From: Botryllus schlosseri
Taxonomy: Eukaryota
DNA length: 64,000 bases
Direction of reading: 5' to 3'
NCBI GenBank assembly: GCA_051294905.1
Contig: CM119372.1
Coordinates: 38,938,001-39,002,000, forward strand
This document shows positions 654 to 61,413 of the stretch, in pieces. The position numbers were made by a program, and so were the translations under genes. The number at the start of each line of letters is the position of its first letter. Positions within the stretch are counted from its first letter, which is position 1. The notes below the pieces were generated by a model. It did not search any database, was not told the DNA's origin, and worked only from the letters and a program-made list of their open reading frames with translations.

Positions 654-865
654 GCCGGCCATGAAATTTGGCTATGGCCGGCCATGAAATATAGTCATGG
701 CCGGCCATGAGAATGAGTTTGACATGGCCGGCCATGGAAATTTCATGGCCGGCCATACTGAAATTTCATGGCCGGCCATGAAAATCACCATGGCCGGCTA
801 CAGAATAGCACTTTTCATGGCCGGCCACGTAATATCTGTGGCCGGCCATGAAATTATCCGTGGCT
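654..865. repeat. Array of about 9 palindromic CATGGCCGGCCATG units with short variable spacers
   Basis: Seen directly; related units at 106-147; array is cut on the right by a LINE 3' fragment. Confidence 0.9.
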
Positions 866-18000: not shown

Positions 18001-20904
18001 TAGAGCTGCACAGAACGGTCTGGTCATTGTTGCAGTAATCTGATATATCACGAAATACTTTTTTCTTCAATTCCACATCTTCGAAAACACATTCCTAAAT
18101 ACGATTGCAGAAAAGCATTACTAAAGCAAAAAATATAGCAATTCAGGTCATGACTGCTTGGACTTGAAAATTCTGAAATATGCCACATTTACAAACATGA
18201 CACATTGCAGCAGGGGCCAGCAACTCGTGACCCACAAGTAGCCCATTACAACATCTACTGGACAAAAACCGGTTATGAAAACGGTGTATTGAGTGACGCA
18301 GCAGTATCGTAGAGCCTTCGTTTTCCGATATTGATATTTTTGGCCTACCAAGTTGAAAAGTTGGACCTCTTGTAAAAGTGGCCAATTTTTAGTTGGTGAT
18401 CCGTGCATGACATGGCAGATATCTCACATTTCAGAGAAGTTGAAATTTGAGCGACTTAGATTCCAATATGATGTCCATAAGGGTATTCGCCGAAAAGCAA
18501 TAAAATAATCATAGTCAATAAAGATCTGTTAAAGTTGCACAAAGCTATCAACTATCAAAGCAACAACACTATTCTTGTAGCATTTGAATAATCAAATATC
18601 AAAAACACCTCTTACACGAATGGGGGCCATTGATGAACACAAAATCAATAGGGTCGCGAAGACTCGACTCGACTCCCGATTATCTGATAACTCGACTTGA
18701 ACTCGAGTCATTGCGAATGACTCGAATCAAGTCATATGACTCGAGATTCAGACAGCCAAGACCGACATTTCATTGTAATTTCGAAGAATGGATAAGTCAA
18801 TACACAATCGGGATTTCGTCTATTGGTAACTGGTACTTGAAAATGCGACTAGAAACTGCTAAAAGTGAGGAGAATTAGTATATTATAAATGCGAACTATT
18901 CGATATCACCAAATAGAGTTATAAAAAGTGGTTTAACAAGACTTTAACTGGAAACTGACCAGTCAACAAAATGACTTCGACTCGAGTCATAATACCATGA
19001 CTCGGACTCGGCCCTCTACTCGCTGACTTGGACTCTGACTTGACTCGGTGGTGAATTGAAAATGACTAGAATTGACTCGAGTCAAAACTATAAAAGTGAG
19101 ATTGACTAGTGACCGGAGCCTTGTGACTTGGTTACAACCTTGTTTGGGAAAATTTCGAATTTTCTCGATTTTACTTATTTCACCCCTGTTACAACGTGGC
19201 TTTCTCAATGCAGTCGACCGATATCAATCAAATCAGCATCATAATTTTTTTGGGTTAATTAGCAATTCCTTTACCCCAAACTCTATCATCACCTCGATTA
19301 AGATGAAAATGTGTCAAAAAGCATCACTCTACCCTTAGCCATGCCTGGAACAAGATGTTTTAACCAAATTTACCACCGTAAATACTATTGTTTGGTAATA
19401 TGGTTGAAATTTCAAGTTTAATTTGGTCTGCTGCTACTGGTGTGAATTGGAATGGAGCCAACTTAGGTGCGTAACGAGATTTCAGGTAAGGTAATGTCGT
19501 ACAATGACTATCGTCTCGTCGTTACTGACTATAGCTTTATTACAGTAAAGGTATAAGCAATGTGGCTTCAAGCAACATAGAACACAACCGACAGCAGAAC
19601 AGAAAGTGTGAATGAATGACACGATAACGATAAGGAGACAACATACTGTGCAAAGGAACTAATCCAATGAAAGTAAATATTGCCTAATTGCGGATCACCA
19701 CAACAAACAATATGATCGGTGTCCGTGTAAGTGAAATTTTGAAATACTATATTTCAGAATATCTTTTGTGAGTATAATACTTACAACCGAAAATACAATA
19801 CAAACCTGCACATGGACAGCGTCTGTGACCACTTCTGGAAGGTCACTAGTGATTGATATCAACGCAGACTGCTCTTTGGCACTCAGAGAACCGCGCAATA
19901 ACCCATCTTTTTCCGTATCATACAGTTGCTCTCTCAAGTGAGAAGAGACGTTGATTATATTTTACAGCTATGCATATATGGTTCAGCCGACATGTACACT
20001 TACTCTATTATTTTATATGCTCTTTCCAATGCGTTCTTGTCAATATCATACATGACCACCTTGTAACCGCCGGCAGCGAAAAGCATGGCCCAGCTTCGAC
20101 CGATCAGGCCACTGAAACAATATCGAGTATTGCATTTGCAATGTATATGACGTATAGTATTGTTCATTTTATTGGTTGATAGACAAGTGCCAGTAGTCAC
20201 ATCTTCTTATTTATTTTGTTATGGAGATCATTGTTGTTTCCAAGCTGAGTCAGTTAGTTATTTCATACACATAGTAAGTGATCACATAGAATTATGGTTA
20301 TGAGTAATTTTTCATTTCAGGATACCAGGCAGGTATATTAACAGCAGTTGTCATTATGAACAAAGAGCTCTCAACCAAAGGCATCCTCACATAATCCTCC
20401 AGAAGAAGCCACCCAAAAGTGAAAAGTTTCAGTTTGAACGAGATCAACAACAGTACAAAATTATATCAGTAAACAGCAATAACGAGCAGCGATGATTCTC
20501 CATTGCTCAATAGCGAGTCCTAGAGCTTCTGGTGATACCGTTTTCGAAAGTTAGCACAATGTCGTCATGGAAAAACTTGGGGATAAATGATATGGAACCG
20601 CCTAGGTCAAGGTGGGTGTCTGATTCCATAGACTACTCCAAGTCGCTTCGACACCTTCCTATCTTTCCATTGCATCGCATTTTGTGGTGTATTGAACTGA
20701 TGAAATTGCTAATGAACCAATGATGATGATGATGATGTCATTGATGTGTAGCTGAAAGCAGGCAGCTGTTTAAATAATTAAATCGAGTATATATCCTGGA
20801 GAAAAGGTTGATACCGGTATCTCTAAAATTGCTTCTTAATTAATCTAAATAGTAAGGCAATATTCAAGTATCAAATACCTTCCCACGATTCCAATTTTCT
20901 TCAT
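8890..20904 (-). CDS. CRYL1: Lambda-crystallin homolog / L-gulonate 3-dehydrogenase, 8 coding exons: 20879-20904, 20004-20111, 19806-19932, 17930-18094, 17255-17449, 15153-15258, 9066-9172, 8890-9003 (948 nt, 315 aa)
   Basis: Spliced translation [31 protein letters not shown]...[14 protein letters not shown]...[12 protein letters not shown]...AHPCNPP...[12 protein letters not shown]...[21 protein letters not shown]...[17 protein letters not shown]. Has the Rossmann GxGxxG motif and the HPxNPP catalytic motif of the 3-hydroxyacyl-CoA dehydrogenase/CRYL1 family. All introns are GT-AG and the phases join without stops. Confidence 0.96.
9066..9172 (-). CDS. CRYL1: CRYL1 exon 7 ([35 protein letters not shown])
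   Basis: Poly-T tract then tcag| acceptor, AAG|gtttct donor, 107 nt. Confidence 0.93.
9266..9776. mobile_element. Foldback MITE (TAGGGGTGTTCAAAAAT termini) in CRYL1 intron 6
   Basis: Terminal and internal inverted repeats; shares AATTTGACTCAATTCCAACCAGT with 50558-51163. Confidence 0.85.
11936..12835. mobile_element. Diverged copy of the 2641/6302 hAT family
   Basis: Colinear internal homology (ACAATCCTGATGGGA.GTCAA.AAATAACA.CATGCA), degraded ends. Confidence 0.6.
14007..14583 (+). mobile_element. Charlie/Buster-type hAT deletion derivative with transposase C-terminal remnant
   Basis: CAGGGGCGGG end; frameshifted [12 protein letters not shown]...[13 protein letters not shown]; homologous to 28915-29070. 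Confidence 0.65.
15153..15258 (-). CDS. CRYL1: CRYL1 exon 6 ([36 protein letters not shown])
   Basis: tttcag| acceptor, |gtaagt donor, 106 nt. Confidence 0.95.
15668..16440. mobile_element. TA-flanked non-autonomous element (Tc1/mariner-pogo-like) in CRYL1 intron 5
   Basis: Repeated AGATGAGACA motifs on the left, inverted TGTCTCATCTTACCCC on the right; TA on both sides. Confidence 0.55.
17255..17449 (-). CDS. CRYL1: CRYL1 exon 5 ([16 protein letters not shown]...[25 protein letters not shown])
   Basis: caacag| acceptor, |gtatgt donor, 195 nt; translated by hand. Confidence 0.95.
17930..18094 (-). CDS. CRYL1: CRYL1 exon 4 ([14 protein letters not shown]...[26 protein letters not shown])
   Basis: tttag| acceptor, |gtaaac donor, 165 nt; absent from the ORF track, translated by hand. 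Confidence 0.95.
18649..19142. mobile_element. GACTCGAGTC-family MITE in CRYL1 intron 3
   Basis: Matches both halves of 2428-5813 joined together. Confidence 0.75.
19806..19932 (-). CDS. CRYL1: CRYL1 exon 3 ([42 protein letters not shown])
   Basis: Only phase-compatible acceptor is cacttgag|; donor CAG|gtttg; 127 nt. Confidence 0.88.
20004..20111 (-). CDS. CRYL1: CRYL1 exon 2 ([35 protein letters not shown])
   Basis: tttcag| acceptor, |gtaagt donor, 108 nt. Confidence 0.95.
20599..20738 (+). mobile_element. SINE 3' portion with (ATG)n tail in CRYL1 intron 1
   Basis: Homologous to the 3' half of the SINE at 63416-63718; close inverted copy at 21858-21991. Confidence 0.7.
20879..20904 (-). 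CDS. CRYL1: CRYL1 exon 1 (MKKIGIVG-S)
   Basis: ATG at 20904; donor AG|GTATT at 20878; phase 2 matches exon 2. Confidence 0.9.
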
Positions 20905-20982
20905 TGTTCCAGATGAAACTAATCGACTCCACGAACTCAGCCGCAGACAGCATGCGGCAATCGAGCAAACAAAAATGCAAAC

Positions 20983-21568
20983 TATAGAATGTAAACGTGG
21001 AATGGCAGCGACCGATTTTGCAGCTTCGTTCCGCTTCGCTGAAGCTTTACTCAGACTTATTTTACGACAGCTACTGTAGAATTTCTGGCAATCCAAAAGT
21101 TGTCTTCCAGAGCTCAGAATTTACTGAATCCGGTCTTGATGGAAAGCTACTGTCGCACTGATTTCGAAAATATCAATCAAAATATGGTGAAGCACCGTAC
21201 TGAGATGAAAAACCACCCTCAACATCTAAAATCTGCATTGTTCAGAACAATCGGATACCGCAAAACAATGACCATAACAATGACCCATTGCGGCTCTTCG
21301 ATTGTTCGGACAATGCCGATAATTCAGACTTGGAGGGCGAATTCTAATCGGTTCAGTGCCTGATCATATTTTTATTTACATTTTCGGAATCAGTGCGATA
21401 GTAGCTTTCGATCAAGACCAGGTTCAGTAAATTCTGAGCTCTGGAAGACAACTTTTGGATTGCCAGAAATCCTACAGTAGCTGCCGTAAAATAAGTCTGA
21501 GTAAAGCTTCAGCGAAGCGGAACGAAGCTGCAAAATCGGTCGCTGCCATTCCATGTTTACATTCTATA
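20983..21568. mobile_element. 586-bp foldback element with TATAGA...TCTATA termini
   Basis: Near-perfect long inverted arms; 8-bp TSD atgcaaac (20975-20982 / 21569-21576). Confidence 0.92.
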
Positions 21569-21857
21569 ATGCAAACAACGCAAAAATTCGTCATGCGTGG
21601 ATGCATTGCTAACCATTGAAGAAATTTGACGTTAAATGGGAATTATATTGAAGCTCGTTTGATATTCTTGCATTTTACTGCCTAATTATATCCTGAACTA
21701 TTGGACAAGCAAATATAGGGATACTTCATTACAATTTACCTCGAGGTATCCCAAAGATGTCATCATCATCATTTTGATATAGTTTTTATCAAATCAATAC
21801 ACCATGAGATTCAATTCAATTTATTGCTAACAATAGTAAAAATTTCATCATTTCACT

Positions 21858-22330
21858 ATCATCATCATTGGTTTATTAGCAATTTTATCAGTTCAATACA
21901 CCACAAAAAATGCGATACAATGAAAAGACAGGAAGGTGTCGAAGCGACAAGGAGCAGTCTATGGAATCTGACACCCACCTTGGCCTAGGCGATGCAAAGA
22001 GGAGGCATGCACACTGAATGAAAGTAAAGAAGATACTATAGAAAAAGAAAGCGACAATAAATAGGGCGGCATGTCATGGGAAGCGAGATCGATAGGTCAG
22101 TCGTGGTCCGGTTCACTACACCACAAGACTGTGATACAATGAAAAATTGTAAGGTGTATAAACGACTTGGAGTAGTCTTCGAAATCAGACACCCACCTGG
22201 CCTAGATGATGTAAAAATTGGGACATGTGCACTGAATGAAAAGTGAAAGAAGATAATATAAAAGGACATGCAGCGAGGCGACAAAAAAGGTGTCATGTAT
22301 CAGAAAACGAAATCGATATGCCATGTCGTT
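21858..22330 (-). mobile_element. Two tandem SINE copies upstream of CRYL1
   Basis: Each has GACACCCACCT(T)GGCCTAG and TGCACTGAATGAAA-like blocks; reverse complement of 20599-20738. Confidence 0.7.
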
Positions 22331-22945
22331 GCCCAGTGAACTAGAGGGCTAACTAGTATAGATTAAGTATAAATTGCTTGTATTTCGACTTGAATGTGGA
22401 CTTTCTCGATGACTGTCATCGGATACTCGGCGAGATACTATTCCACCAATCAGGTCCGGCATATTTGATACAGCGATGATATTTCTTTTTTACCATATAG
22501 TAATTGGTCGACGTGGACGAGCGTTGTTTCATACTTATGCACTTCTGATACCGAGGTAAAAGAAGTCGATTGTAAGTTTTTCCTGCCAATGGCGACAGTG
22601 GAACTGAAACTTTGCAATTTCTAGTTTCTTCATATCTTTCATGTTTAGGACACCGAATCTCTTGAGCAGTGATTTGTTGGACCTACGTCCTGCATGGTCC
22701 CTTTGGGACCCTGACTATGATAGGGAGGACCTGATGTTGTAGGCTAGTTTTTGCAGTGGATTCAGTGCGTTAACATTGGCAGCCCTAAACAGATGATGCC
22801 ATATTGTAACTTTGATAGGAATAATGATTTATAGATAGTATCAGAAGAACCCAGAATAGCATGTAGTCTCAGTAGAACAGACCACAGTTCGAATCTGGTA
22901 AAACCCCAAGATTGCGATATAGTGAAAAGTTAAGAGAGTGCCGCA

Positions 22946-23560
22946 CAGTGACGTATAGGCGCATATGCTGCCGCCACTTGCTTTCGTTGAAAATGCCGCC
23001 CCCAGTAGACTGCAATAGATTTTGAAATAGTTTCATGTTCCAGCAATCTTTTCAATAAAAATAAATACAAATACTATACCACGTACATCTCAGATGTTCT
23101 ATATTGCTTGACAAAGAAGCCAGCTCGCAGTGTCAGCGTTAAAAGGCCAAAAATAACAGACAAACAATGGAAAACAAATGTATTCGGAAAATGAAAGAGC
23201 AATATAGCAGCCTAAAAATTGAACTTATTTCGGGTTTTCGCTGGAGGAAAGTCAGCAATAATATCTTTGAAATCAAGTTTTTGAACGTAGTATAGTCTTT
23301 TTCTGTATGCAGAATCGACAGAGCTGATAGCCGATCATCATTCATGGTAGAACGTAAATACGACTTCATCCTTTTGAGCTTGAGAAACTCCTCTCACAGC
23401 TCGCAATTGAAACACAAATGGTAAGATAAAGATTCAGACATAAGTACCTATGCTGAATACCGTGTCGAATCAAGTAGGTGTGATTTAGCTATTGTAAAAC
23501 ATTAAATGCTGTTGCATTACGATCAAACGTTGCTTCACTGTTTCGCACCGGCCTCTTATA
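22946..23560 (-). pseudogene. hAT transposase C-terminal (dimerization domain) remnant with one terminal repeat
   Basis: LYLTICVSIASCERS/ then frameshift /KLKRMKSYLRSTMNDDRLSALSILHTE; CAGTGACGTA end at 22946. Confidence 0.85.
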
Positions 23561-25403
23561 TCGGTCTTGAAATCATTTTGTCACGCGCAACTAGTCGAAA
23601 AAAATCACCGACTCCAGTTTTTAGTAATAGATCGTAACAAATTAGGTCGTGATTAGCCATATCATCGCATTGTGTGCACTGTGCTGAGTGTGCAGCCTTA
23701 TTTTCCGCCCCTTTCAGCCAGAACCGCCAAGTGTCTTCGCATCGCATTGTGTCTTATCGCATTGTAGGCTACATTGTGTGTGAAAATATAACTTAACGAT
23801 TATTATTTACGCCGCTGATGCCGCAACGACTTGGAGTAGTCTGGAGAGTAGTCTAGACTTGGAAAGTTAGGAAAGGATAATATAAAAGGAAGCGACGAAA
23901 AATGAAAGCAGCATGTGTCGGTCGGTAGGCGATGTCGATAAAGTCAGATTGGGGTCCGGTAGTCTTGAAGGCGGACTAGGAGTCTGTGTAGCCTAGTTGT
24001 TGCTTTGTATATCTTGCGCTGCTGACCATAGATGAACAGGATTATCACATTTAAAACTTTCATTTGACTCTATTTGAATTGGAATTTTTGAACAGATGAA
24101 ATAGAATAAGGAAAGGGGGTTTGGAATATAATTTGTAATTGTAATTGATAGTGCACAGCCGTCCCTTTTAACAATGAACCAATGCTGTCCGGATGTTGAA
24201 TATAGTTCCGTAGTAAATTAGTCACGTAACCATGGTAGGCTACTCGGATTCATATATGTAAAACTACAAAACTGCCTCATTCTAGGCATGAAAAATCAAT
24301 GGCTTTTGTAGACGGTAAGAAAATGCCAATTGTATTGGTGTGCGGCCCGTAGAGTGATCGAGTTTATAATTTAAGTATGTGTTGTGTATTCGATTTGGCC
24401 TAAGTTCCTGTGGGCCAGGAGTAAGCTACTGGCCAAAATACACGAAAATATGCGTATGTGATCATGATATGAATATTTCTGACAAAATTTATTCAATGAC
24501 TTGAAAATATGTTCCATCGATACTCGATCGCATCGCTACTCTCGATCGGACATTATTCGATTACCGCACTTTATTTAGATGTATATCTCCAACATCATCA
24601 CCTTAATGACCCTGATCAGTCCTGTAATGTACTTAAACCCCTATGTACACCATATACCACCGTTTCCCTAGGTAGTGTGGGAGTATATGGTAATTGACAA
24701 CCTCCAAACCTACATGAACCTACCAACCGCAAGCTGATCTCATTCGATCTGGCTTATTTCATTCGATCAAAAGCAACTGCTGCCAAGCTGTAGCAACTTA
24801 TACCGCTGATAAAGCTGTAATACAGCTGTGATGCACCTGATTGCGGGAGAGTATGATAAATTGTGTATTTCACACCATATTAGGTTAGGATACGAATATG
24901 ACTTCCTATTGCAACTATCACGAGTCTATACAAACGTATGTTTAGCTGACTCGAGACGAGATTCATGTAAACCTACTTTCAACGTTGAATAAACTGCATG
25001 TGTATGGGCAATATATATCGTACGAAGAACTACCGCGACAGCAAACCAGGACAGTCTCTCAGTTAAGTACCAGACGGCTTACAGCCTAAAATTGGACACT
25101 TGGACAGCTACTTTCTGAGTTATACTTCACAGAGACAAATTCCTTAAATCGTTGCAGTAGGCCTATTTATATCTATCCATAGCTAGTCTAAATGGTTGTA
25201 CAAAGCAACCAACTGATCTGAGGTATCGCGAACACAAAAAATCAGCATTTATATTCTACAGGGGCCATGGCATATGTTGTTTTCCATCGTATATAGTTTA
25301 CTTGTTTTGCTGTTCATGTCATGGATCAGACTGTAAAGACAACGCTGGTTAACTGGTAGTTTTATGTTCTACATGTATATTTATCCTCATCGGCTAATAG
25401 GAC

Positions 25404-27660
25404 CAGCACCGTAACTGCCGCACCCCAAACCCCCCAATTGAGGGGGGCCCGAGCTCGAAGGGGGCCCAAAATTATTTCCTGAATCAGCATAAATCATAGA
25501 GTATTTTTTGAAATTTTATGCAATTTTTTCAAAATTTTTTCGCGCCGCGCGCGAATTAAAGTAGCCATTGATCTGTAGTATTGGGTATTGGACCATTACC
25601 GCGCCCCGACCCACCAAGACATACAATCAAGTTTTTTAGCCATATAACATGCGACTCCAAGAGGTGTGCCAGAACGATCGGCAGCGAGAAAAGCTTGGCC
25701 AAAAAGGTCTATGCCCTATGCAGACCGAAGACTTCGTTATATATACAAAATACTAGGGATGGTGTGAACGTGAGGTTCACGTTCGCGTTCTGTGTGTGAA
25801 CCTTCGAAATTTAGGGGTTCACGTTCACAAACGAACCTTGGTAGGTTCTTCACTGCGAACCTTTTTCATATATCAAAATTTTCACTTCATTATAACATCT
25901 TTGGTTGAAATTTATTGCATGTCAACTGCGAGCCACTCTATGCGTGGCGCTGGCAGCATAAAAACAAATCAACACTGAACGATCATGCACCTTGAAAATC
26001 TCAAAAATTCTACATGCTTGGTTACAAATGTTTGCTCGAAATATCCAGCTTTACGTTTGTGAATATTTAGTGACTCTGTGATGTGAGCTTGACCCGCAAT
26101 CACACAAGATCAAGAGGGAAATACGCTATACGTAGATACTCAACTTAGCCAGGGATATCCCTGACTTAGCGAATGATGCTTATTCAGCCAACGAATGATG
26201 CTTATTCAGCCAATCAATGAAACTGATATCGTTGTCTGGTAATAAAAATCTAGCTGCCGTACGGGGTCAATCTTGATTTCATGTGTTTATTGCATCATAA
26301 AAAACAAATCGTCGCGATTGGGGTGTTGGCTACTGCTATATAACTTTTTAATGAGGCAATATCGGTAGCAGGTATGGAAACCCGTTTTACGCTCTGCGCA
26401 ATATCAACGTAGCAATGCTCAGACGCCGAATGCATTGTCTGGTCTGGCCTAGATCGTTAAGTCGTAAGCTTATATTCCCTTGCAAGTCCTCGTTGGCAAA
26501 GCGACGGAAGATATTGATTTTATGGGATTATTATATGATTTGATTGCCGCAGTTGACACACTTGACGTTTGTCGACGTTCACATTGTTATAGGCTATCAC
26601 ATCACTGAAATGTAAGTTTGGAATTAGCAATATGACGTCACGTGACGTCATGAGGTTCACGTTCGTGTTCACACAGAACCTTTCAAAAAGGTTCGCGTTC
26701 ACGCGAACCTGAACCTTTCTGGGGTTCACACCATCCCTACAAAATACATATAGGTTTAATTGTCCATAGGCGCCTAAATGACTGGCGCCGAATGTTCCTG
26801 TCTTTGCAATCTGAACCCCACAAGACAAATACCATCCCGTTGGGAAAAATTTTATGCCAGTGAAGAAATACCAATTTGAAATCGTGTGCGTCTCTTAGTT
26901 TAGAAGCCTACATTTGGACGATTCTATATTTCTTGATATAGCAGACTTGAAGTCACAAAATAACATCATGTGACGAAGTCATATCAACGTGTCCGCCAGC
27001 CCGAAGATGTTTAATGATTATTTACGGGCCCTCCCGGTAAATCTAATTACGTGAGTAGAGAGGACAATAAATTGATAGCATAATATATATGCAATCGCCG
27101 ATCTGATTGATCGATTTCATCATAAATTATCGAAAATTTTCGCGCATCGCGCTGGCTCACAGTATAGTACAGATAATTTCGTGACAAACGCGAACAACGT
27201 GATGGGGGGGGGATCGTTTCATCACCCTATGGGAGCCCAAGACCCACGTTTTTAGGGGCCTGACCAGGTGCTGTTTCGTTCCTGCCAACGGGTATACCCC
27301 CGAAGATGTTTAATTAATATTGAGTGGTCCTACCTTTTCAAACACACCTCACTCAGCTCTACCGGCAAATCTGATTACGTGAGCAGAGAGAAGATAAAAA
27401 TTGATAACAATTTATGCAATTCCCGATCATACTGACCGATGTAATCATGAATTCTAGAAATTTTCCGCGATTGGCGCGCTTAGGCGTCAAAAGCTTATTC
27501 ACTAAACAAACTCCGAATGAAAATGATGATTAGCGGTAAAAGTCAATCGCCGGAGGGGGGTCTGGGGGGCGAAGCCCCCCAGAAGTTGGGTCTATAACCC
27601 TATGGGGGGCCCAAGACCAAAGTTTTGGGGGGGGCCTGACGAAGTGCTGTTACGGCCCTG
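25404..27660. mobile_element. Second copy of the 6724-8066 hAT family, 74 bp past the B3GNT-like stop codon
   Basis: Perfect TSD aataggac; colinear with 6724-8066 apart from the nested insert. Confidence 0.92.
25754..26739. mobile_element. hAT-type MITE (TIR TAGGGATGGTGTGAAC) nested in 25404-27660
   Basis: Perfect TSD caaaatac; empty site seen in the 6724 copy (~7112); opposite-orientation copy at 54122-55092. Confidence 0.95.
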
Positions 27661-27734
27661 AATAGGACATAGCATCCAATGTTTGGAGCAACTGATCCTC
27701 TTCTTCTCGTACATTCACAAGCACAAATTCGAGC

Positions 27735-28840
27735 TTATTTCAAGTTCGATTTATTTCCGACATTGCTGTTAAAATTATTAATAGCATTCCACATTGCAAT
27801 CATTCTTTCCGGCAGGGCACGATGATACGTTTTGATATTTACAAGATTTTCAGGACTTGGATCGTCCATGCCCCAACTTTCGAAACCTGCAACATTTTTC
27901 GGTTCGATGCCAATGTTCTTAGCTAGGATACCAAGAAAAGCATCATCGATAGGAATCATACGAGTGCGCATCGACTCCATAAAAAATCTCACCGCCACAC
28001 TCCCGCTTAAAATATGGCCACCGCCCGAAACGTAAGGCGGATACGTGTTTTCGGGATACATAGATTTACTAACGTAGTACTTTGATTTGGGGTCGGTAAT
28101 TCTCGGACTACCCTTCAACAGCGACCCCGCCCACAAAGACTTTCTATCGCTTTGCGGAAGAGACAAAAGATATTGCACGATATTTTCGACATTCACCAGA
28201 ATATCGTCGTCGCCCTGAAATAAAAAGGGAACGTCCCCGCAATGCGCAGCAAACCACTGCAGAAATAAACACTCTTTTAAAGTAAGCGTTCGAAAGCTGT
28301 CCGTAAAATCCCACAACAAAATATCTGAATGCTGACGACTTTCCGATATCACTCTCTTTAGATCTTCGTCTGAGTTACACGCGCCGAGTAAAAACAATAA
28401 TTTAGTTCGTACGTGCAGGTTTCGATAAATCCAAGACCCATTTCCCCACGTAGTTCTAACTGCGTCTCTTCTCTCTGATGAACGGCAGACTGATTTGACA
28501 GTCATTAGTAGAAAAATATCTGTTTCGAAATCAAATTCATCTTTTCCAATCGAAGTGGCATTTCTTTGGGGCGCCCTGCTACACGTTTCATTCGAAGAGA
28601 TGACCAGTTTATAATCTCGTTTCTGTGACGCGTCATCGATTGGCGTGAAGGCTGTTAGCGGAATGGGCAGTTGTAAATATTTTTCCATACTTTCGAGCCC
28701 AGGTAAACTGGTATGGTTGTCGTCTATTGGCTGGTGAGTTGTCTGCAGAAGAAACGCGGCTGGAGTTACATAACTGCCCTTTGCTTCGTAAAAATTTGGT
28801 TCGGTTGATTTTCTCAGCAATTCTTGTTGATTTGTTCGAC
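27735..28840 (-). CDS. GT31 beta-1,3-N-acetylglucosaminyl/galactosyltransferase (B3GNT-like), large terminal catalytic exon
   Basis: Within the 375-aa ORF: LLMTVKS, RRDAVRTTWG, LFLLG, DILLWDFTDSFRTLTLK, QGDDDILVN (DxD), YPPYVSGGGHILS, IPIDDAFLGI. Phase-1 acceptor ttaacacag| at 28841. No transmembrane segment in the ORF, so an upstream exon is needed. Confidence 0.93.
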
Positions 28841-29077
28841 CTGTGTTAAATAAATAATACATTATTCACCTATTTATCCACATATACAAGGAATAAATCG
28901 TATAAAATGAATGAAAACTTCAAGTTCATTAAGTATTGACACCAAACACGGAATTCAATGAATTTATTAACGAAATGTACTTCCATATCTGTTGAATTTG
29001 ATGAGACATATGTGGTCGATCAAATCTGTCAACAAGTTCTTGGAACTCTGGTTCCTTGTCGGACGTAGAAACCCTTA

Positions 29078-31682
29078 AGGCCTCTGCACACTGACCTCGC
29101 GACGCAACATCGCGAGTTGCGCGTTGCGAGTCGCGAGTCGTAAGTCGCGAAGCAATGCACACTGGTCCCGGCAGTGCCCACAAGCGGCAACTACAGCTCT
29201 TGCGCGTTCTGTCCGAAGTCTCGCAATGGATACACATTGCACAGCTCCCGATAGATCGCAAATGAATATTTCGATGGGTGTACATTGGTTTGTCAATGAA
29301 TAAGATGACGTCTAATATGCACACACTTTTCCATTAACTAGGGTTGCCATACGTCCGGAATTTCCCGGACATGTCCGGAATTTCACTGTTCAAACTAGCG
29401 TCCGGGAGGAATTCCTAAAATATGCCAAATGTCCGGAATTTTGACGACTTGGCGTAGACTCATAATTTTTTTCGCAAATCAGCCTAAAAACAATATTTTT
29501 GGGAATATTTATGCTGATGCATGATATTTTTCTTTGCGCTGCGCGCGATTTATCATCACATTTATTGGATTTATTATGATGACTACCACCCACGCAAAAA
29601 CTGAAATAAAATATAGATAAAGACAACCTTCATTACTGGAATAAGCCTAATTGTAATTGCAATTATAGGAGAACGATAGATTCCAAGAGATCTTCAAGGC
29701 AATTTAAATGCTTTGTTCAAAGATAGTGGTTCCAAACGGGGGGGGGGGGTCGTTTGCTTTTATTCTGAGGTTTGCGTATATGTTGAACGTAATCACCTTC
29801 TAAAATAGACCGTGAGTAAGTCTGGGCAAAGGTGCTGACTTCTATAGTAATCGGCTCGTCAAATTTTGATCTGGGCAACGGAACATTTTCAAATTGGAGA
29901 CGGAGTCGCGACCATAAAAGGTTGGTATCCACTGGATGTGGGGTGTTTATAAATCTCAGTGGTGCGCACCGGCATAAGGCTGATAAACAATCTTATTGGT
30001 AGGACATGAACATGACTTAACGAAGAGCTCTCTCATTCGAAATTTCATGCTGGTGACGTCATATTTTGTGATACGACTGTTGATATACAATGTTCTTTCC
30101 AATTCTCTACTAGTGTCAGCCGAAAATATTCGGGTTCATTTCAATATGAATATACTATTTAATGACTTAACGATGTGCAATTACGCTCCCTGTATTTTCG
30201 AACTCATCATCCTCCACCAGCAAACTGTGATCATGTGGGCGGAGAGTAGTAGGCCTATCTATATAGTAATATATGGAACAACCAATATTATTGACTGAAT
30301 TCATTCAAATAATTTATTGACCAGATGCATATAGAAACCAGATTACTATAACAACCCCCGGAAGTTGCATAGATTACACTATAGTGTGGGCTCAAAATGA
30401 TTGTTTATTTGGGCGGGAAGGGGCTGAAAGCATGTGCTTTCGGTCCCGGTTACACAACACACAGCGACATAGGCTACTTCTGAACCGGATCGTGACCACC
30501 TCTAGTCTATGAGCAAAGCTTTGCTAGTGTGACGTCATAACTCATTCTTAAATCCACTAGTGGGCGCTAAAGAGTGTCCGGAATTTGGGTTGCAGAAATA
30601 TGGTAACCCTACCATTAACGAACCAATATCATATTTCAATGCTGAAAACGCATGATCTGGGTGACCCAGTTAAAGGCGCTATTTCCGGTTGCCGATCCAA
30701 ATTTCTGGAGTTCTAGCTGTAGCCTATTATGCTACAGACACCAAGCCTTTCCGTATTCCACTGCCTCAGTGACTGCATCAACTGTCAAGCACTCATACAT
30801 TAATTTCTCGATAAGATAGAGAACAACATTCAAATGCATTATAATTTTATTGTAAATGAATTAAGTCTTAACAATATTCAAATATAACTCTGGGATTCTT
30901 TCCTTTTCAATCTTCGATTCGCCCTCAGGTATCAAGCATGGAAACTGATCCGTAGGCCTGGTTGATTCATTCTCCATAATGATGCATAGTCCATTTCTGA
31001 CTTATAATATTAGCCACTACAATTCGTACCGAAGTCTGATAAAGAGGAGAATAGACGAAATCTAACATCAAGAGTTACACTGCTGCTATCTAGTCAACAA
31101 AAAGATTTTCAGACTTCGTGTACTGAGATGTACCGGTATCTGAAATATACATCAATGAACCCATGACATACCACGATTATATGTACCTGCTTAACCCAGT
31201 TTCCAACCAATGTACACTGTACAGGTTAAAATGAATCAGACAAGGTATATATCTAATAAATCCACCTGTAGATATACAATGACTGAGAGTTTCGCGGTAT
31301 CGGTACTGCCGGAGCTGGTTGGCCTTTGGTAATTACCAAGTACCGGTACTGCTTACAGTAGAATGCGCTCTTGCAGTTAAGCTTCAAGTTTTAAAATGAC
31401 CTCAAATCAGTCTAAATTCAATGAGGAAACAATTATAGATGCCAAAACACGCAATACCCGGACAAACTATTGCGGTGACATAGAGCTAACGATCAGTAAC
31501 TGCTGACCAGTCGCTCGCAACTCGCGACAAAGTTGAAAATTTTCAACTTTGTCGCGGAGTTGCGCAACCCTGTCGCAGACGGCATGTTGCGAGTTGCCGG
31601 CGACTCCGGTCTGCATGGTCCAGTCGCAGACAGGCGCGATTCTCTCGTTTTATCGGGTCGCGAGCTCAGTGTGAAGAGGCCT
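29078..31682. mobile_element. PIF/Harbinger-type non-autonomous element
   Basis: TIR AGGCCTCT(G/T)CACACTGA; 3-bp TSD TTA; CpG-rich TCGCGA subterminal repeats. Confidence 0.85.
29339..30611. mobile_element. hAT (Blackjack-like ends) nested in the Harbinger element
   Basis: TIR TAGGGTT(G/A)CCATA; perfect TSD ccattaac; inverted relative at 37102-38092. Confidence 0.92.
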
Positions 31683-31789
31683 TTACGTGCACGTGCGCAT
31701 TTTCCCAAGATTTGTTCGGTCACTATACGTATACATTGCCGCATCGTCAATGTAATTATCGCCATGGTGATAGAAAAGGTAGCCTAAAC

Positions 31790-32366
31790 TATAGATAACT
31801 AACCTACGGATAGATAGCCAACAGCCGTCGTCACGCTTGCTTGCTCGGAGGAAAATACTGCTCAGCAATCTGAACTCAACGTAATTGCCAATCCCATAGC
31901 TGACGACCCGAGCGCTCAAATTGAATAAAGTTGATCTTACTTGAACGCTACTGTCGCACTGATTCCGAAAATATACATTCAAATCCGATCGGGGCAATGG
32001 AACCGCCTCGAAATACACCTCAAAGTCTGAAAATTGACATTGTTCTGAACAATCGAGGACACGCAAGGGTTATTGTTATGGTCATTGTGGTGCGTCCATA
32101 CGATTGTCTGGAACAATGCCGATTTTCAGACTTTGAACGCTATTTCGGGCTGGTTCTTTTGCCTTGACGAAAGTTTAATGTATATTTTCGGAATCAGGGC
32201 GACAGTAGCTTTCTAATAAGATCAACTTTGTTAAATTTGAGCGCTCGGGTCGTCAGCTATGGGATTGGCAATTACGTTGAGTTCAGATTGCAGAGCAGTA
32301 TTTTCCTCCGAGCAAGCAAGCGTGACGACGGCTGTTGGCTATCTATCCGTAGGTTAGTTATCTATA
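31790..32366. mobile_element. 577-bp foldback element with TATAGA...TCTATA termini
   Basis: Near-perfect arms; 7-bp TSD cctaaac; core shared with 20983-21568. Confidence 0.92.
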
Positions 32367-32510
32367 CCTAAACTACGATCACCACTAAGAAAAATACAGA
32401 GGCGTGCATGAATGTGCGCTTTTCAACGGCCTATGACTGTACGCGCGAGGATAGCCAAACCGGGATAATAACGTCAACCATAGAGAAAATTGTTAGCTGA
32501 TATCATTAGG

Positions 32511-32967
32511 TAGGCTTACCATACGTCCTCTTTTAAGAGGATTTGTCCTCTTTTTTGACGTTTTTGAAAGTGTCCTCGGAGGACGCCCTTTTGTCCTCTT
32601 TTTTGAGATTTTGTCCTCTTTTTTGAAAATTTAGGTCAGATATAGAGGAAATTGCGAGTGATATGCCGCAAATTAGCGCAGAAGTGAAGCTCCGGCGGTT
32701 ATTTCGGAGGAAAAGCGGTGATTTCAGCTCTGAGCGAAATGAAGACCTTTTTTTTTTTTTTTTAGTCATCCACCAAGCAATGTGGAGTGAAAAACGTGTT
32801 TTTGAGCTCTGAGCGGAAGTGATGACCTTTTTTTTTTTTTTTTTTTAGTCAACCGACCGCAAAGTGGGAAAAATTCACCGGTTTTTGAGAATTCTACTCC
32901 GGTTTTGCATCTTGCAAATTTCTGAAAAAGTGTCCTCTTTTTGCATTTTCAAAATATGGTAAGCCTA
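32511..32967. mobile_element. hAT MITE with GTCCTC repeats
   Basis: TIR TAGGCTTACCATA; perfect TSD tcattagg; relatives at 46204-46605, 44670-44853 and 45770-46093. Confidence 0.92.
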
Positions 32968-35924: not shown

Positions 35925-38237
35925 CAGGCCGTGTTATTTTTGGCATATGCCAACACTGCCTTAATGGCTTATTTTTGGCATTTTTAAATTTTTATTTTTG
36001 GCAGTTTTGGCATCATCCTCCAAATAGATAGTTTCAGACTCAAATTAGTCATAAAACGCTTTATTTGGGCCAGTTTATTAAAAGAAACCACAAAATGTGC
36101 AGCATCCACTTATAATCAGTGCCAACAAACAGTATTAAAAAGAAAAAAAACCTAGCGATTTCATAGGTTTATAATATCAACCGAAACCACAAAATGTGTA
36201 GTATCCACTCGGAATCGGTGCCAATAAGCAAAAAGAAAGAAAAGCCGCCTAACAAACACGCTCAACACCTGATTTTTATGGCTGTTGAATAGACCTAAAT
36301 TGTTTGGACTGTGACAGTGCTTCCAAACTCGGGTCAGCTATAAGTTTGTCCTGAATTCATTTTTCGCCTGACGAATCTGGGAAATATCGGCTTCAACAGT
36401 AGCCGTTGAGGGAAAGAATGTTGCCAGTCCTTAACAAAAGGTTTTCAGATCTTCAAAATTTTGGAGGACCGAACTGGCTTTCAAGCATCATAAAAATAGA
36501 CCACTTCGCTAGTGCCATCGATCTCATCGCGGAAATAATTTTCTTCCCGATAATTTTCAAGGAGTTTCCTGTGTTGTCTCTCAACCATCACATCTCCTCC
36601 AGTCTACCGAAATATTTTCGGAGGACTTTTCTCACTTCAGATGGCTTTAATATTACCAACTTACATGGAAGAGTTTTCGGAAGGTTAGCTTGTTTAAGAA
36701 CATTGACGCAACAAGACTGTCTGGCAAAACCAGACTGCAGCTCAAAAATAGCCAGACTGTTTGTTGCGTCACAATGCTCAACTCAATCACAATGCAAAAA
36801 TCGTGGTTGATTTTTACGGTTTCAGATCCATGAGCACAATGCAATTTATATTTTAGTAATCAGTACAGCGGCAACTTCCCATGGATACCCGTTTTATCAC
36901 ATTTAGCGCTCGGCAAGCCGGTCAAAAATGGTCGTAAAATTGCCTTTGGACAAAAGGAAAGTATGACGTAAACCAAAAGCAGTCAGCCGTTCAATCTCGC
37001 GGAGCCCACACCATTTAGGACACCATGCTTCCATTTCCAACCCTAATGGGTGCGCTGGACCCAGATTAAGAAACCTGCCCTTCACACACGCTCTTCTAGC
37101 CTAGGGTTACCATATCTCTATGGCACAAATTCCGGACGCTCTTTAGCGCCCACTGGCGGATTTGAAAATGAGGTATGAGCACATTGTCGCTCAATATGAC
37201 GTCAAACCAGCAAAGCTTTGTCTATCGACTGGAGGTGGTCACGATCCGTTTCAGGAGTATGTGGTTGTGTGTTGTAAGTTGTACCCAGGGCCGAATCTTA
37301 CTATATGCATCTAGTCGTTAAATGATTTGAATGATTATGTCAATAATATTGGTTCGTCTGTATATTACTTTATAATTTTGATCCTCTCATCGCCCACGGC
37401 GCCCACATGATAAGCATTAGCGGTAGAGCTGGTGGAGGATGATGACTTCGAAAATGCAAGGAGCGTAATTGCACATCGTTAAGTCATGTTCATTGTTCAT
37501 GTCACACCGATAAGATTATTTATCAGCCTAACGCCGGTACGCTATGCACCACTGAGCTATATAAACACCGCACATCGGGTGGTTTCCAACCTTTTATGAT
37601 TACGACTCCATTTCCAATTTCAAAATGTCCCGTGGCCCAGCTCAGAATTTGATGAGCTGATTACTAATTAAAAGTCGGCCCATTATAGCCCAGACTTACT
37701 CGCGTTTTATTTTGGAAGCTGATTACGTTCGTTCAACATCTTCGCGAACCCCAGAATAAAGACAAACTACCCCCAGATTTAGAAGCACTATATTCGGTTA
37801 AAGCATCCAAACGGCCTAAACCGACTCTATGAATATCCGGTTATCTGGTAATTGTGATTACAATTACACTTATTTTTGTAAATAAATGTTATTTTCGTTT
37901 ATTTTTGATCGCAGATTTTGCGAGGGTGGTTCATGTAGCCTAAATCTGCTCAAAAAAATATTGTTCATGTTGATTTACGAAAGAATTATGAGCTTACTTC
38001 AAGCCTTCAGAATTACGGACATTTAAGCATATTTTAGAAATTCCTCCCGTACGCAGTTTTAACAGTGAAATTCCGGACGTATGGCAACCCTATTCTAGCC
38101 TGTAACGCGGTCTTGTTAACACAACACCATGAACGAAATACACTATTGACAGGCCGTGTTATTTTCGGCATTTTCAAATTTTTATTTTTGGCAGTTTTGG
38201 CATCAGGCTCCTGAATTGGCAAAAATAACACGGCCTG
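35925..38237 (-). mobile_element. hAT deletion derivative with a decayed transposase (~36275-36800)
   Basis: TIR CAGGCCGTGTTATTTTT; perfect TSD gctataag; minus-strand remnant GLATFFPSTATVEADISQIRQAKNEFRTNL...SLEALSQSKQF. Confidence 0.9.
37102..38092. mobile_element. Blackjack-like hAT nested in 35925-38237
   Basis: Perfect TSD ttctagcc; same family as 29339-30611. Confidence 0.92.
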
Positions 38238-50557: not shown

Positions 50558-51163
50558 TAGGGTTGTTCAAAAAAAAACTTTTTTTTTTCAAATCTCACTC
50601 GCCTAATGACTAAATCGTCAGGTTGTCCAAGAAAACGATGCACACCAAATTTGACTCAATTCCAACCAGTAAAGGCCGTGAAATCTTGAATTGAAATTTT
50701 TAATTTATTATTAAAAATTTAAAAAAAAATCTCAAATTTTTCTGTCAACCCTATGAAATTGTTGAGCTGTCTTCAAAGACGATGCAAAACAAATTTGAGT
50801 CAATTCCGACTTGTAGAAGCGGAGTTATTCGAGTTTTTCGTTGATATTTATTGGATTATCCTTGATCCGGGGATTATCAACGAAAAACTCATATAGTTCC
50901 GCTTCTACTAGTCGGAATTGACTCAAATTTGTTTTCCATCGTCTTTGAAGACAGCTCAACAATTTAATGGGGTTGACAGAAAAATTTGAGATTTTTTTTT
51001 TTTAATTTTTATTAATAAATTAAAAATTTCAATTCAAGATTGCACGGCCTTTACTGGTTGGAATTGAGTCAAATTTGGTGTGCATCGTTTTCTTGGACAA
51101 CCTGACGATATAGTCATTAGGCGAGTGAGATTTGGAAAAAAAAGTTTTTTTTGAACAACCCTA
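50558..51163. mobile_element. 606-bp near-perfect foldback MITE
   Basis: Arms of about 285 bp with a short loop; TIR TAGGGTTGTTCAAAAA; perfect TSD atatacaa. Confidence 0.95.
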
Positions 51164-53095
51164 ATATACAATTGAATAAATCGAAATATTTTTGTTTGAT
51201 ACTTATCAGGAGTAATCGTCAGCAGCATGTAGATACAGTATACAATTGACTAACAGATGTATACAAAGTATAGTCTAACTCATTTCTTCATACTACTCGA
51301 GTACTCTTCATACCATTGATTTTTTGCTTCAACAAGTAGATTTCAATATCCAATTGACTAGCAAACGTCTGCAAAATCTGGTCTTAACCTACTTTTGCAA
51401 ACTACTTCATGAGTACAATTTACCATGATATGATGGGTTATCTTATAAGTGTATGTGTGCGCAAGAGCGACCCACAATAGGTAGAAAGTTCCTGCCACTG
51501 TCCTTTTCAGGTTTGATAGACTTGTGCACAACCAATGATATATAAATGATTATTCACAGCATATACTTTGTATAGTCATTTAATTGTAATGTTGTCCATG
51601 TCCAGTTTGTCAACTCTTACAATCATAGTTGACTTGTAAGATGGTGACTACGAAGAATGGGACGGAATAGAGACTGTCCAACAATCCCCTTCACTCAACA
51701 AATTTCCGAACTTACACATCACCACCTATTCCCTCAACGGTCGAGGTGATCATGGAAGAAGTTGATCGAATCCGAGCGTCATAACAATGTGTCATCGGAT
51801 GGGTATTACAGAAGCAGGATTTTGAACAGCTTAAATACCTCACCTCTTCATGGACTCCTAAATGCGCTGATACTAGTCGTGACTAAATTTCAATGAGGAT
51901 ACCAACACCATAATATCATTGAGAATTTTATACAGGGTATATGGAATGGGACTGAACAATGTTGTTTCGGACCTGGTTACAACACACCACCAGATAACCG
52001 CACCGACCTAACAGTATAGCAGGGCTGTCAAACACAAAACCGGCGGACCGGATGAGGTCTAACAGACGACTTCATCCGGCCCATGCAGAAATCTGTTGCA
52101 GACCCAAGCAATCACCAGAGCTCACATTAGAGATGGCCCAATTCAAAACCACTCCACTCCTGTGTACAGTCGACAGGCGAAGTTTGGCTAGTGTGACGTC
52201 ATATTCACTGACAATGTGTTTATACTTCATTGTAAAATCCGCTAGTGGGCGCTAAAGAGTTTCCGGAATTTGATCCACAAAAAGATGGTAACCCTAGTAA
52301 AGATTACAGCCAGCAACAAGATCTTATCAGCAGCGTGAAACTTTCTACATCCATATACCACTATAACAGTACATTTCGGTGCTCTGATAGATGTTTGCCA
52401 GCAATTGGGCGTATTGCAGCAGAGAATGTGACATTTTACTTATTTGGGTGGGTCCACACGTTTGAATGCTGCATACATGTGTCAACTGTTACCCCATATA
52501 ATTCACCTGCGAATAGATGTGACAGTACGGTTGGAAAACCAGATAAAGCTAGGAAACTGCATTGTAGCGAACAATCGGAGCGCGCCATTGTCAGTTTTAT
52601 AGTCATTGTATGGCGATTGATCGGAGCAATGCTCATTTTCGGCAATTTAGGTGCAATTTTGTTGTAGTATTAGCAGGGGCCTGACATGATTATAATATAT
52701 ATTTTAGGAATCATTGCGACAGTAGCTTTTATTCAAAACCAATGTTAATAAATTTTTCGGTAATATCGCAAGCTAAGCTATGTAATTACTATATTTCTTT
52801 CCACACCTACAAGAAATTGTGAGCCCTGTCTGGTTGCGAAGCCGCGTAAAGCGAAGCGACATGCTTTGCATCTACCTGTAGGTTCGATAAATCAAGCCAA
52901 CAATGACCAACATTGGGCGAGACTTGATAATTAGGTATCATTATTGCCACCTAGGGTCCAACACAGAACCGGGTCAATATATAGATAGGGAGATACAAGA
53001 GAGAGCCTGTCTGTTTCAATTCATACCAACAGAGGCTTGGACGTTACTTAAGTTAATTTATTATCCTAAAATTCACAACTCAGAATACTATAGCT

Positions 53096-61148: not shown

Positions 61149-61413
61149 CAGTGGTTCCCAACCTGGGGGGGGGGGGCGCCCCCTGGGGGGATGGGGGCCT
61201 GAAAGCCTTCAATTCATGCGTGTTTCTCTATATATAGACCGAATTTCAGATTTTTAAATTCTCTCATCAACAGTCATAACCTTTCATGCCATCAAACAAT
61301 CTGTTGAGGTTGCTAGCATCCCGGTTCGATTTTGTGATATGACGATATGGGGCGCGCGAAATTTTTCACTATCATAAAGGGGGGCGTGTCTAAAAAAAGG
61401 TTAGGAACCACTG
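61149..61413. mobile_element. Charlie-like hAT MITE
   Basis: CAGTGGTTCC ends; perfect TSD atctaaag. Confidence 0.92.

What the first reader, a model, noticed from the sequence alone, without database searches (positions are those of the whole stretch)
20983..32366. TATAGA-ended foldback family: conserved core, divergent but self-symmetric arms
Seen: two palindromic elements of similar length (20983-21568, 586 bp; 31790-32366, 577 bp). Both start TATAGA, end TCTATA and sit after ...AAAC, with TSDs of 8 and 7 bp. They share inner motifs (GCTACTGTCGCACTGATT.CGAAAATAT, CATTGTTC.GAACAATCG) and an asymmetric centre (ACAATGACCATAACAAT.ACCC), present in opposite orientations. Their outer ~100 bp cannot be aligned by eye, yet within each element the two outer arms are almost perfect mirrors. 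Typical MITEs show the reverse pattern (conserved ends, variable middle). Inference: arms are homogenised within a lineage and the functional cis-site may be internal. The 7-8-bp TSD would fit the P-element superfamily, but this is unproven.
Basis: partly seen in the sequence, partly recalled or inferred. Interest (0 to 1): 0.7.

Follow-up and report, generated by a model that had tools for sequence, protein, structure and literature searches.

The report
Palindromic P-type MITEs, self-copying arms
These are two copies of an abundant, gene-less, hairpin-shaped jumping element in a sea-squirt genome, probably moved by a P-element-type enzyme, whose outer arms stay mirror images while drifting apart between subfamilies and whose inner motifs stay conserved.

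Summary
Confirmed. E1 (20983-21568, 8-bp TSD) and E2 (31790-32366, 7-bp TSD) are gene-less palindromes of one family in an ascidian. Between them, offsets 7-100 align no better than shuffles, while inner motifs reach 78-89%. Within each, arm mismatches are 4 of 250 outside and 20 of 150 further in. Public contigs laid on one E2 arm suggest thousands of copies and show peaks at the ~25-bp tip and inner motifs. E2's minority bases sit in both arms at 8 of 8 listed outer sites and 0 of 9 inner ones. Flanks of other copies point to a 7-bp GT-nnn-AC target, as for Galileo (P superfamily). Best reading: non-autonomous P-type foldback MITEs with tip, variable spacer and internal inverted motifs, the arms copied onto each other by template switching. 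No autonomous partner was shown, and Dfam/Repbase were unavailable. One correction: tips are conserved within the E2 group, so the 'reverse of a MITE' pattern holds only between subfamilies. The scan has no look-alike sequence, but noted a similar pattern in this genome's giant palindromes and in a bacterial repeat, and P transposons in this genome.

The parts
20983..21568 (.). E1, complete palindromic element, 586 bp
20975..20982 (+). E1 left TSD ATGCAAAC (8 bp)
21569..21576 (+). E1 right TSD ATGCAAAC
20989..21082 (+). E1 outer arm (offsets 7-100; mirrored at 21469-21562); no detectable similarity to E2
21146..21171 (+). E1 inner motif A, left arm (starts 164 bp from the tip); candidate subterminal inverted repeat / transposase site (inferred)
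21380..21405 (-). E1 inner motif A, right arm
21237..21253 (+). E1 inner palindromic motif ATTGTTC-N-GAACAAT-CG, left
21254..21298 (.). E1 asymmetric 45-bp centre with repeated ACAATGACC
21299..21314 (-). E1 inner palindromic motif, right (degenerate)
31790..32366 (.). E2, complete palindromic element, 577 bp, centre in opposite orientation to E1
31783..31789 (+). E2 left TSD CCTAAAC (7 bp)
32367..32373 (+). E2 right TSD CCTAAAC
31790..31816 (+). E2 tip, 21-27 bp shared by copies that differ further in (true TIR, inferred)
   Evidence: tables 2 and 5
31947..31972 (+). E2 inner motif A, left arm (starts 158 bp from the tip); deepest bin of the arm
32184..32209 (-). E2 inner motif A, right arm
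32039..32055 (+). E2 inner palindromic motif, left
32056..32100 (.). E2 asymmetric 45-bp centre
32101..32117 (-). E2 inner palindromic motif, right (degenerate)
52549..52895 (+). Relic 3: centre plus one arm of a further, older subfamily; E2-like tip, motif A about 170 bp from it; other arm missing; right end approximate
   Evidence: nhmmer E 9e-22; alignments; tip vs E2 0 of 2000 shuffles as good
36789..36920 (+). Relic 4: decayed motif-A region of one arm
   Evidence: nhmmer E 2e-8; alignments

Best explanation
E1 and E2 are copies of two old subfamilies of one abundant non-autonomous cut-and-paste element, a fully palindromic (foldback) MITE, most likely moved by a P-superfamily (Galileo-like) transposase. 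Each arm reads: short tip (cut site, about 25 bp, subfamily-group specific), a spacer of roughly constant length whose sequence is free to drift, then conserved internal inverted motifs that act like the internal binding sites and subterminal inverted repeats of P elements. The outer arms stay mirror-perfect because one arm is repeatedly copied from the other: when the gap left by excision (or a stalled fork) is refilled, the new strand folds back on its own first arm after passing the centre and finishes the second arm from it. Everything outward of the switch point is equalised, so symmetry rises toward the tip, and a change in the spacer is fixed in both arms at once. SHOWN: structure, TSDs, non-uniform divergence, symmetry gradient, high abundance, several subfamilies sharing the inner motifs, paired minority bases in the outer arms. 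INFERRED: 7-bp GT-nnn-AC target (from one-sided flanks), P-type partner (about 0.65), template switching as the copying route (about 0.55), protein binding at the inner motifs (about 0.5).
For: Exact TSDs. No coding capacity: longest Met-started frame 75 aa, none shared. Abundance: arm depth 52,000-138,000 against 13.7 in the unique flank of run X1, roughly 2,000-5,000 elements; X5 gives 1,700-4,600 (the tool says summed contig depth is no copy number, so order of magnitude only). Depth relative to the outer arm in 3 of 3 contig runs: tip 1.9-2.2, motif A 2.2-2.7, inner spacer 0.25-0.42, inner motif 1.3-1.9. Loose ends just outside motif A have an E1-like consensus in all 4 runs (44+22, 36+23, 16+6 contigs; 25 reads) and another outer arm joins at 31872 in 2 runs. 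Arm mismatches 4/250 at offsets 1-125 vs 20/150 at 126-200, p=3e-6. E2's minority bases are in both arms at 8 of 8 listed outer sites, 0 of 9 listed inner sites (0 of 5 if only sites with 84% or more of the other base are kept, p=8e-4). Target: consensus of 32 X1 flanks ends GTTTAAT; two RNA-read flanks end GTGCAAC and GTAGAGC; one contig leaves the end into GTCAGAC; 5 of 7 listed tip-reaching pieces with flank run on 2 or more letters into ..AC (p about 1e-5 and 2e-4 from window dinucleotides). Galileo: P superfamily, foldback-like, 7-bp GTANTAC, sometimes 8 bp (PMC4168063; PMC2775673), two TIRs of one copy 98-100% alike (PMC3573991). P elements have internal binding sites and subterminal inverted repeats about 100 bp (fly) or 400 bp (zebrafish) from the TIR (PMC7776569). 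Template switching homogenises inverted-repeat arms (PMC8604942). Earlier unchecked notes report P transposons in this genome.
Against: No autonomous element with these ends was seen: none of 93 frames of 80 aa or more in the window hit a transposase family and no genome was held. Ends are TA..TA; P-type ends are recalled as CA..TG (not verified). Neither window TSD is a clean GT-nnn-AC (each has only the AC half), and E1's 8-mer fits the recalled hAT pattern nTnnnnAn. The flank evidence is one-sided, the 32-contig consensus has agreement 0.4, and only 24 of 721 loose ends, 15 of 53 joints, 40 of 144 variant rows and 24 of 10,374 pieces were shown. In Galileo the terminal 40 bp are the most conserved part across subfamilies; E1 and E2 tips share only 6 bp (offsets 7-35, p=0.30). 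Fly P ends are asymmetric in spacing, these are symmetric. The conserved asymmetric centre has no counterpart in the P layout. The outer variant sites are commoner (older) than the inner ones, so part of the 8/8 vs 0/9 contrast may reflect age. Joints clustering at offsets 21-27 may partly reflect E2's own odd bases at 28, 29 and 35. Only two complete copies were in hand.
Confidence: 0.55

Rival explanations
1. End swapping: the inner module is one old unit that has acquired different, non-homologous ends (from different P-type or other families), each new end then being copied to the other arm. E1 and E2 would be moved by different transposases.
For: Offsets 7-100 show no homology at all; TSD lengths differ, 8 vs 7; other outer arms join at distinct points, 31872 and 31943-31947; relic 3 has an E2-like tip but only weak similarity behind it (p=0.02); chimeric Galileo copies are known (PMC3573991).
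Against: Tip-to-motif-A distance is nearly constant (158, 164, about 170), both ends start TATAGA, and similarity fades gradually (63% at 101-160) rather than at a sharp junction, as expected of drift.
Confidence: 0.2
2. The partner is not P-type but another enzyme that makes 7-8-bp TSDs (hAT or hAT7, Zisupton/Kyakuja) or has TA..TA ends (IS3EU/GingerRoot); the rest of the model is unchanged.
For: Ten elements with (C/T)AG ends and 8-bp TSDs lie in the window (hAT label recalled); hAT7 and Kyakuja make 7-bp, Zisupton 8-bp TSDs (PMC12730594); IS3EU always ends TA..TA (PMC10045372); earlier notes report Zisupton in this genome.
Against: IS3EU TSDs are usually 6 bp, and no 6-bp reading fits E1 or E2; Kyakuja has CA..TG ends and no TIRs; hAT7 was described from rust fungi; the one-sided flanks fit a 7-bp spacing, not the recalled 8-bp hAT pattern; none of the ten hAT-like elements in the window starts TAT.
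Confidence: 0.17
3. Symmetry is selected, not a by-product: the element travels as a folded single strand (snap-back, Angel-type model), needing perfect pairing in the outer stem and specific sequence only in the inner motifs and loop.
For: Both fold into one long hairpin (-252 and -275 kcal/mol as DNA); the Angel model proposes fold-back amplification (as described in PMC5172404); earlier notes describe many giant palindromic elements in this genome.
Against: Exact 7-8-bp TSDs and a palindromic target bias are what a staggered-cut transposase leaves; a hairpin intermediate would need inner pairing most, yet inner arms are the least alike; arm mismatches show no bias to G-T pairs on one strand (read from the list).
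Confidence: 0.1
4. The inner module is kept for a host-related job: a cluster of Sox/HMG-type sites (germ-line enhancer or DNA-bending platform) or a pre-miRNA-like hairpin.
For: AACAAT occurs 5 times in 115 bp (E1) and 4 in 110 bp (E2) against 1.3 per kb in the window (the Sox/HMG label is recalled); the central 116-121 nt fold with z -7.2 and -5.0.
Against: Folding follows trivially from the palindrome, and relic 3 folds no better than shuffles (z -1.3); no Rfam match; in the one RNA run laid, 129 reads fell on both strands, 96% ran on into other sequence and the centre was the thinnest part; conservation across thousands of dispersed copies points to selection on mobility.
Confidence: 0.08

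Closest known systems
Galileo / Newton / Kepler of Drosophila (P superfamily; PMC4168063, PMC3573991, PMC2775673, passages read)
   Same: Foldback-like long inverted arms, gene-less two-arm copies, several subfamilies, near-identical arms within a copy, 7-bp (sometimes 8-bp) TSD with GT..AC consensus, conversion proposed between arms.
   Different: Galileo subfamilies share nearly identical terminal 40 bp; E1 and E2 share 6. Here conservation between subfamilies peaks 160-270 bp inside, with a conserved asymmetric centre; no tandem repeats in the arms; no transposase-bearing copy seen.
Drosophila P element and zebrafish THAP9 elements (PMC7776569, passages read)
   Same: Short TIR plus internal inverted motifs set back by a spacer (about 100 bp and 400 bp there, about 160 bp here); 8-bp TSD as in E1.
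   Different: P ends differ in spacing left and right and the spacers are not mirror images; here both ends are the same arm. 7-bp TSD in E2.
Angel MITE of fish (seen only as described in the review PMC5172404; the original paper is recalled)
   Same: Imperfect palindrome; fold-back DNA synthesis proposed; recalled as keeping symmetry despite large divergence between copies.
   Different: Different termini and TSD; the model has the hairpin itself as the travelling form, which is not needed here.
IS3EU/GingerRoot (PMC10045372, passages read)
   Same: TA..TA termini.
   Different: 6-bp TSDs; no partner or homology shown.

Membership tests
Non-autonomous TIR element (MITE / foldback) | Terminal inverted repeats with exact TSD | tested here: met
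Non-autonomous TIR element (MITE / foldback) | No coding capacity | tested here: met
Non-autonomous TIR element (MITE / foldback) | High copy number, dispersed | tested here: met
   Depth thousands of times the unique flank; mixed flanks; rough estimate only
P superfamily (Galileo-like) | 7- or 8-bp TSD | tested here: met
   2 of 2 complete copies; Galileo 7, sometimes 8
P superfamily (Galileo-like) | Palindromic GT..AC target preference at 7-bp spacing | tested here: inconclusive
   Supported by one-sided flanks; the two paired TSDs carry only the AC half
P superfamily (Galileo-like) | Ends shared with an element encoding a THAP/P transposase | not testable with these tools
   No genome held; none in the window; earlier notes on P elements in this genome give no termini
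P superfamily (Galileo-like) | CA..TG termini (recalled, not verified) | tested here: not met
   Ends are TA..TA in both copies; source table not held. Filed as 'works like', not as a member
P superfamily (Galileo-like) | Internal inverted motifs set back from the TIR | tested here: met
   Motif A in 4 of 4 arms at 158-164 bp; layout; binding untested
hAT | 8-bp TSD and (C/T)A(A/G)NG ends (pattern recalled) | tested here: not met
   E2 TSD is 7 bp; ends read TATAG; flanks fit 7-bp spacing
IS3EU/GingerRoot | TA..TA termini | tested here: met
IS3EU/GingerRoot | 6-bp TSD | tested here: not met
   8 and 7 bp
Zisupton / Kyakuja (KDZ) | 8-bp TSD with TIRs (Zisupton) or 7-bp TSD, CA..TG, no TIRs (Kyakuja) | tested here: inconclusive
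   E1 fits the Zisupton length; E2 fits neither fully; Zisupton termini not found in the papers listed
A family already in Dfam/Repbase | Sequence match to a library consensus | not testable with these tools
   Libraries not available

The most novel reading that the evidence does not exclude
The inner module is a shared 'chassis' (a binding and DNA-bending hub, perhaps for an HMG protein or for the separately encoded tail domain that earlier notes describe in this genome's two-gene P transposons), while the ends are replaceable addresses. Because one arm overwrites the other from a switch point out to the tip, a new or captured end is installed on both sides in one step, letting one MITE lineage keep up with, or jump between, diverging transposase families with different TSD lengths.
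Probability: 0.15. Interest if true: 0.7.

Novelty: new variant of a known kind. Interest (0 to 1): 0.4.

Why it matters
How long-armed transposons keep their arms alike, and how gene-less elements follow a changing transposase, have mostly been argued from a few Drosophila copies. A family with thousands of copies, several subfamilies and a steep tip-to-centre gradient of symmetry would let conversion tracts be measured directly and would mark the internal sites that a chordate P-type transposase needs. If the partner proves ordinary and the ends homologous, it remains a neat but modest example of known processes.

Tried and rejected
No whole genome was held, so no genome-wide BLAST, consensus building or paired TSD table was possible. 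Viral contigs: 0 hits with three patterns. Metagenome contigs: 0 hits for motif A; 2 loci for the centre pattern, neither similar to E1/E2 by BLASTN. Prokaryote genomes: 16 loci with an 18-bp motif (about 17 expected by chance by my estimate); 9 lie in one repeated element of one cyanobacterial bin, which has no match to E2: rejected as chance. Rfam: 0 matches. Pfam on 92 frames plus the long ORF: no transposase; one sub-threshold DUF485 hit. A looser tip pattern gave 8 window matches against 10 expected: no further tips. No shared reading frame in the core. No RNA holder was listed as such. No empty-site allele appeared among the rows shown; this shows nothing either way. A pair count on the four-row alignment was not obtained and would have said little with two elements. 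In-window controls: the foldback at 50558-51163 is 80-100% symmetric along its whole arm, so long-arm symmetry is not unique to this family, but it lacks the inward decline. An 8-bp imperfect TSD for E2 (shifting the right end by one base) was considered and dropped because it breaks end symmetry. Ten paper searches listed no description of this family or of a TATAGA-ended ascidian MITE; none was a search for the motif itself, and supplements were not read.
Full report
E1 (20983-21568) and E2 (31790-32366) begin TATAGA, end TCTATA and are flanked by exact repeats of 8 and 7 bp. They are the two longest short-spacer inverted repeats in the window. BLASTN joins them only over E1 104-483, at 71%, in opposite orientation. 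The host is an ascidian: the one long frame in the window, a galactosyltransferase-family gene at 27735-28865, has its best named hits in Clavelina, Styela and Ciona at 46-50%. No genome was held.

Divergence between E1 and E2 is not uniform. Identities by offset from the tip: 7-100, 50 of 94 (shuffles give 49% +/- 4); 101-160, 38 of 60; 161-195, 31 of 35; 196-245, 27 of 50; 246-285, 31 of 40; chi-square p=7e-4. The core is a set of motifs separated by a spacer that is as unalignable as the outer arm. Motif A starts 164 bp from the tip in both E1 arms and 158 bp in both E2 arms. A 15-bp palindrome ATTGTTC-N-GAACAAT flanks a 45-bp asymmetric centre on each side.

Symmetry inside each element runs the other way. 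In 25-bp bins the two arms are 92-100% alike out to offset 150, 84-92% at 151-175 and 64-84% further in. Pooled, mismatches are 4 of 250 at offsets 1-125 and 20 of 150 at 126-200, p=3e-6. A profile of the inner region found two more relics in the window, 52549-52756 (E 9e-22) and 36789-36920 (E 2e-8). The first continues to about 52895 and ends in an E2-like tip (0 of 2000 shuffles as good) with little similarity in between (p=0.02); its other arm is missing.

Public data extend this to the family. I laid 4 of 24 listed runs, three as contigs and one as RNA reads, on 31500-32100, that is one E2 arm with its flank and centre, at 80% likeness. In X1 the unique flank has depth 13.7 and the arm 13,500-138,000. 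Taken at face value that is about 2,000 elements with E2-like outer arms and 5,000 with motif A; X5 gives 1,700 and 4,600. The tool warns that this is no copy number, and X1 may be the source sample, so I take only the order of magnitude. The shape repeats in 3 of 3 contig runs: relative to the outer arm, tip 1.9-2.2, motif A 2.2-2.7, inner spacer 0.25-0.42, inner motif 1.3-1.9. Loose ends pile up just outside motif A with an E1-like consensus in all 4 runs, and another outer arm joins at 31872 in 2 runs. Nine of the 15 joints shown match the first 21-27 bp and resume further in. Only 24 of 721 loose ends, 15 of 53 joints and 40 of 144 variant rows were displayed.

The variant table gives a direct test of arm copying. 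Of 22 rows shown inside E2, I dropped 4 in the centre (no mirror) and 1 where E2 has the common base. At the 8 remaining sites within offsets 28-100, E2's less common base is present in both arms, 8 of 8. At the 9 sites within offsets 134-248 it is in both arms in 0 of 9; keeping only the 5 where 84% or more of depth has the other base, which cannot be fixed left/right differences, gives p=8e-4. The outer variants are commoner and so probably older, which may add to the contrast.

The flanks point to the enzyme. The consensus of 32 X1 contigs before the tip ends GTTTAAT (agreement 0.4). Two RNA-read flanks end GTGCAAC (7 reads) and GTAGAGC (8 reads). One contig, seen in 2 runs, leaves an element end into GTCAGAC. 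Five of 7 displayed tip-reaching pieces with flank run 2-4 letters into the AC of E2's own TSD (p about 1e-5; the letters of these extensions were not shown). One further flank ends in AC with GT at 6, not 7. Together these suggest a 7-bp GT-nnn-AC target. Galileo, a foldback-like member of the P superfamily, makes 7-bp TSDs of consensus GTANTAC and occasionally 8 bp (PMC4168063, abstract and passages; PMC2775673, passages), and the two TIRs of one copy are 98-100% alike (PMC3573991, passages). P elements carry internal binding sites and subterminal inverted repeats about 100 bp (fly) or 400 bp (zebrafish) from the TIR (PMC7776569, passages). That layout explains conserved motifs behind a free spacer. 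The contig just mentioned is two 18-bp tips joined by one base, close to what the 17-nt staggered P cut would leave after end joining; it is a single locus and only a hint. Six earlier, unchecked notes describe P-type transposons in this genome; I could not see their ends.

Mechanism. Shown: structure, TSDs, abundance, shared inner motifs, symmetry gradient. Inferred: a P-type transposase excises the element; during refilling of the gap the new strand passes the centre, folds onto its own first arm and completes the second from it. Such template switching is known to homogenise inverted arms (PMC8604942, abstract and passages). My inference is that it equalises everything outward of the switch, which gives the gradient and lets neutral spacer changes fix in both arms together, while selection on mobility keeps the tip, the spacing and the inner motifs.

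Against this: no partner was found; the ends are TA..TA, whereas I recall CA..TG for P elements and could not check it; neither paired TSD is a clean GT-nnn-AC; Galileo subfamilies share their terminal 40 bp while E1 and E2 share 6 (offsets 7-35, p=0.30); the conserved, AACAAT-rich centre is unexplained. IS3EU has TA..TA ends but 6-bp TSDs (PMC10045372, passages); hAT7, Kyakuja and Zisupton make 7-8-bp TSDs (PMC12730594, passages). The Angel fold-back model (review PMC5172404, passages) is a precedent for symmetry kept without sequence. PMC3706591 (passages) added nothing on Zisupton ends. I therefore say it works like a P/Galileo-type foldback MITE and do not file it as a member.

Novelty. 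No related sequence was found in viral, metagenome or prokaryote collections, in Rfam or in the scan's notes by sequence or place. Ten paper searches listed no description of the family, but Dfam and Repbase could not be checked and supplements were not read. Every ingredient has a precedent. The combination, inner motifs outlasting the tips between subfamilies and a measurable outward rise in symmetry across thousands of copies, is a new variant worth moderate interest: 0.4.

Noticed in passing
window 27735-28865 (-): Uninterrupted 376-codon frame of the Galactosyl_T family (B3GNT-like); best named hits are ascidian.
   Followed up: partly
window 20599-21991: E1 sits inside a larger element with inverted arms (20599-20730 / 21858-21991, 88-100% alike over 125 bp) that has relatives at 22111-22343 and 59210-59316.
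   Followed up: partly
window 3097-5151, 25754-26739, 32511-32967, 33498-35094, 35925-38237, 50558-51163, 53096-56027, 54122-55092, 57257-58878, 61149-61413: Ten elements with (C/T)AG ends and exact 8-bp TSDs, hAT-like by recalled criteria; 54122-55092 is nested in 53096-56027 and is a relative of 25754-26739.
   Followed up: no
window 50558-51163: A 606-bp foldback with internally repeated arms, 80-100% symmetric along the whole arm; a diverged relative lies at 9262-9779.
   Followed up: partly
table 5c, runs X1 and X5: A contig in which two 18-bp family tips are joined by one base inside another repeat: a possible P-type excision remnant or an extreme internal deletion; one locus.
   Followed up: partly
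window 31500-31688: A separate high-copy repeat lies about 100 bp left of E2 (depth 4,000-29,000 in X1).
   Followed up: no
window 52897-52920: A centre-like ACAATGACC motif lies just outside the tip of relic 3; chance or a second fragment.
   Followed up: no
window 654-864: Short array rich in the palindrome TGGCCGGCCA, period 21-23.
   Followed up: no
window 21505-21535, 32310-32335, 52833-52862: The outer arms of E1, E2 and relic 3 each carry GCGAAGC- or GCAAGC-like words 35-65 bp from the tip, a possible faint shared signal; seen by eye, not tested.
   Followed up: no
L003, L005, L007, L010, L013-L017: Nine loci of one cyanobacterial bin share the end of a repeated insertion-sequence-like element that happens to contain the 18-bp motif; unrelated to the finding.
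   Followed up: partly
L001 791-1026; L002 1-160: A 52-bp tandem repeat with a small palindrome (L001) and a long perfect hairpin at a contig start (L002); no BLASTN similarity to E1/E2.
   Followed up: no
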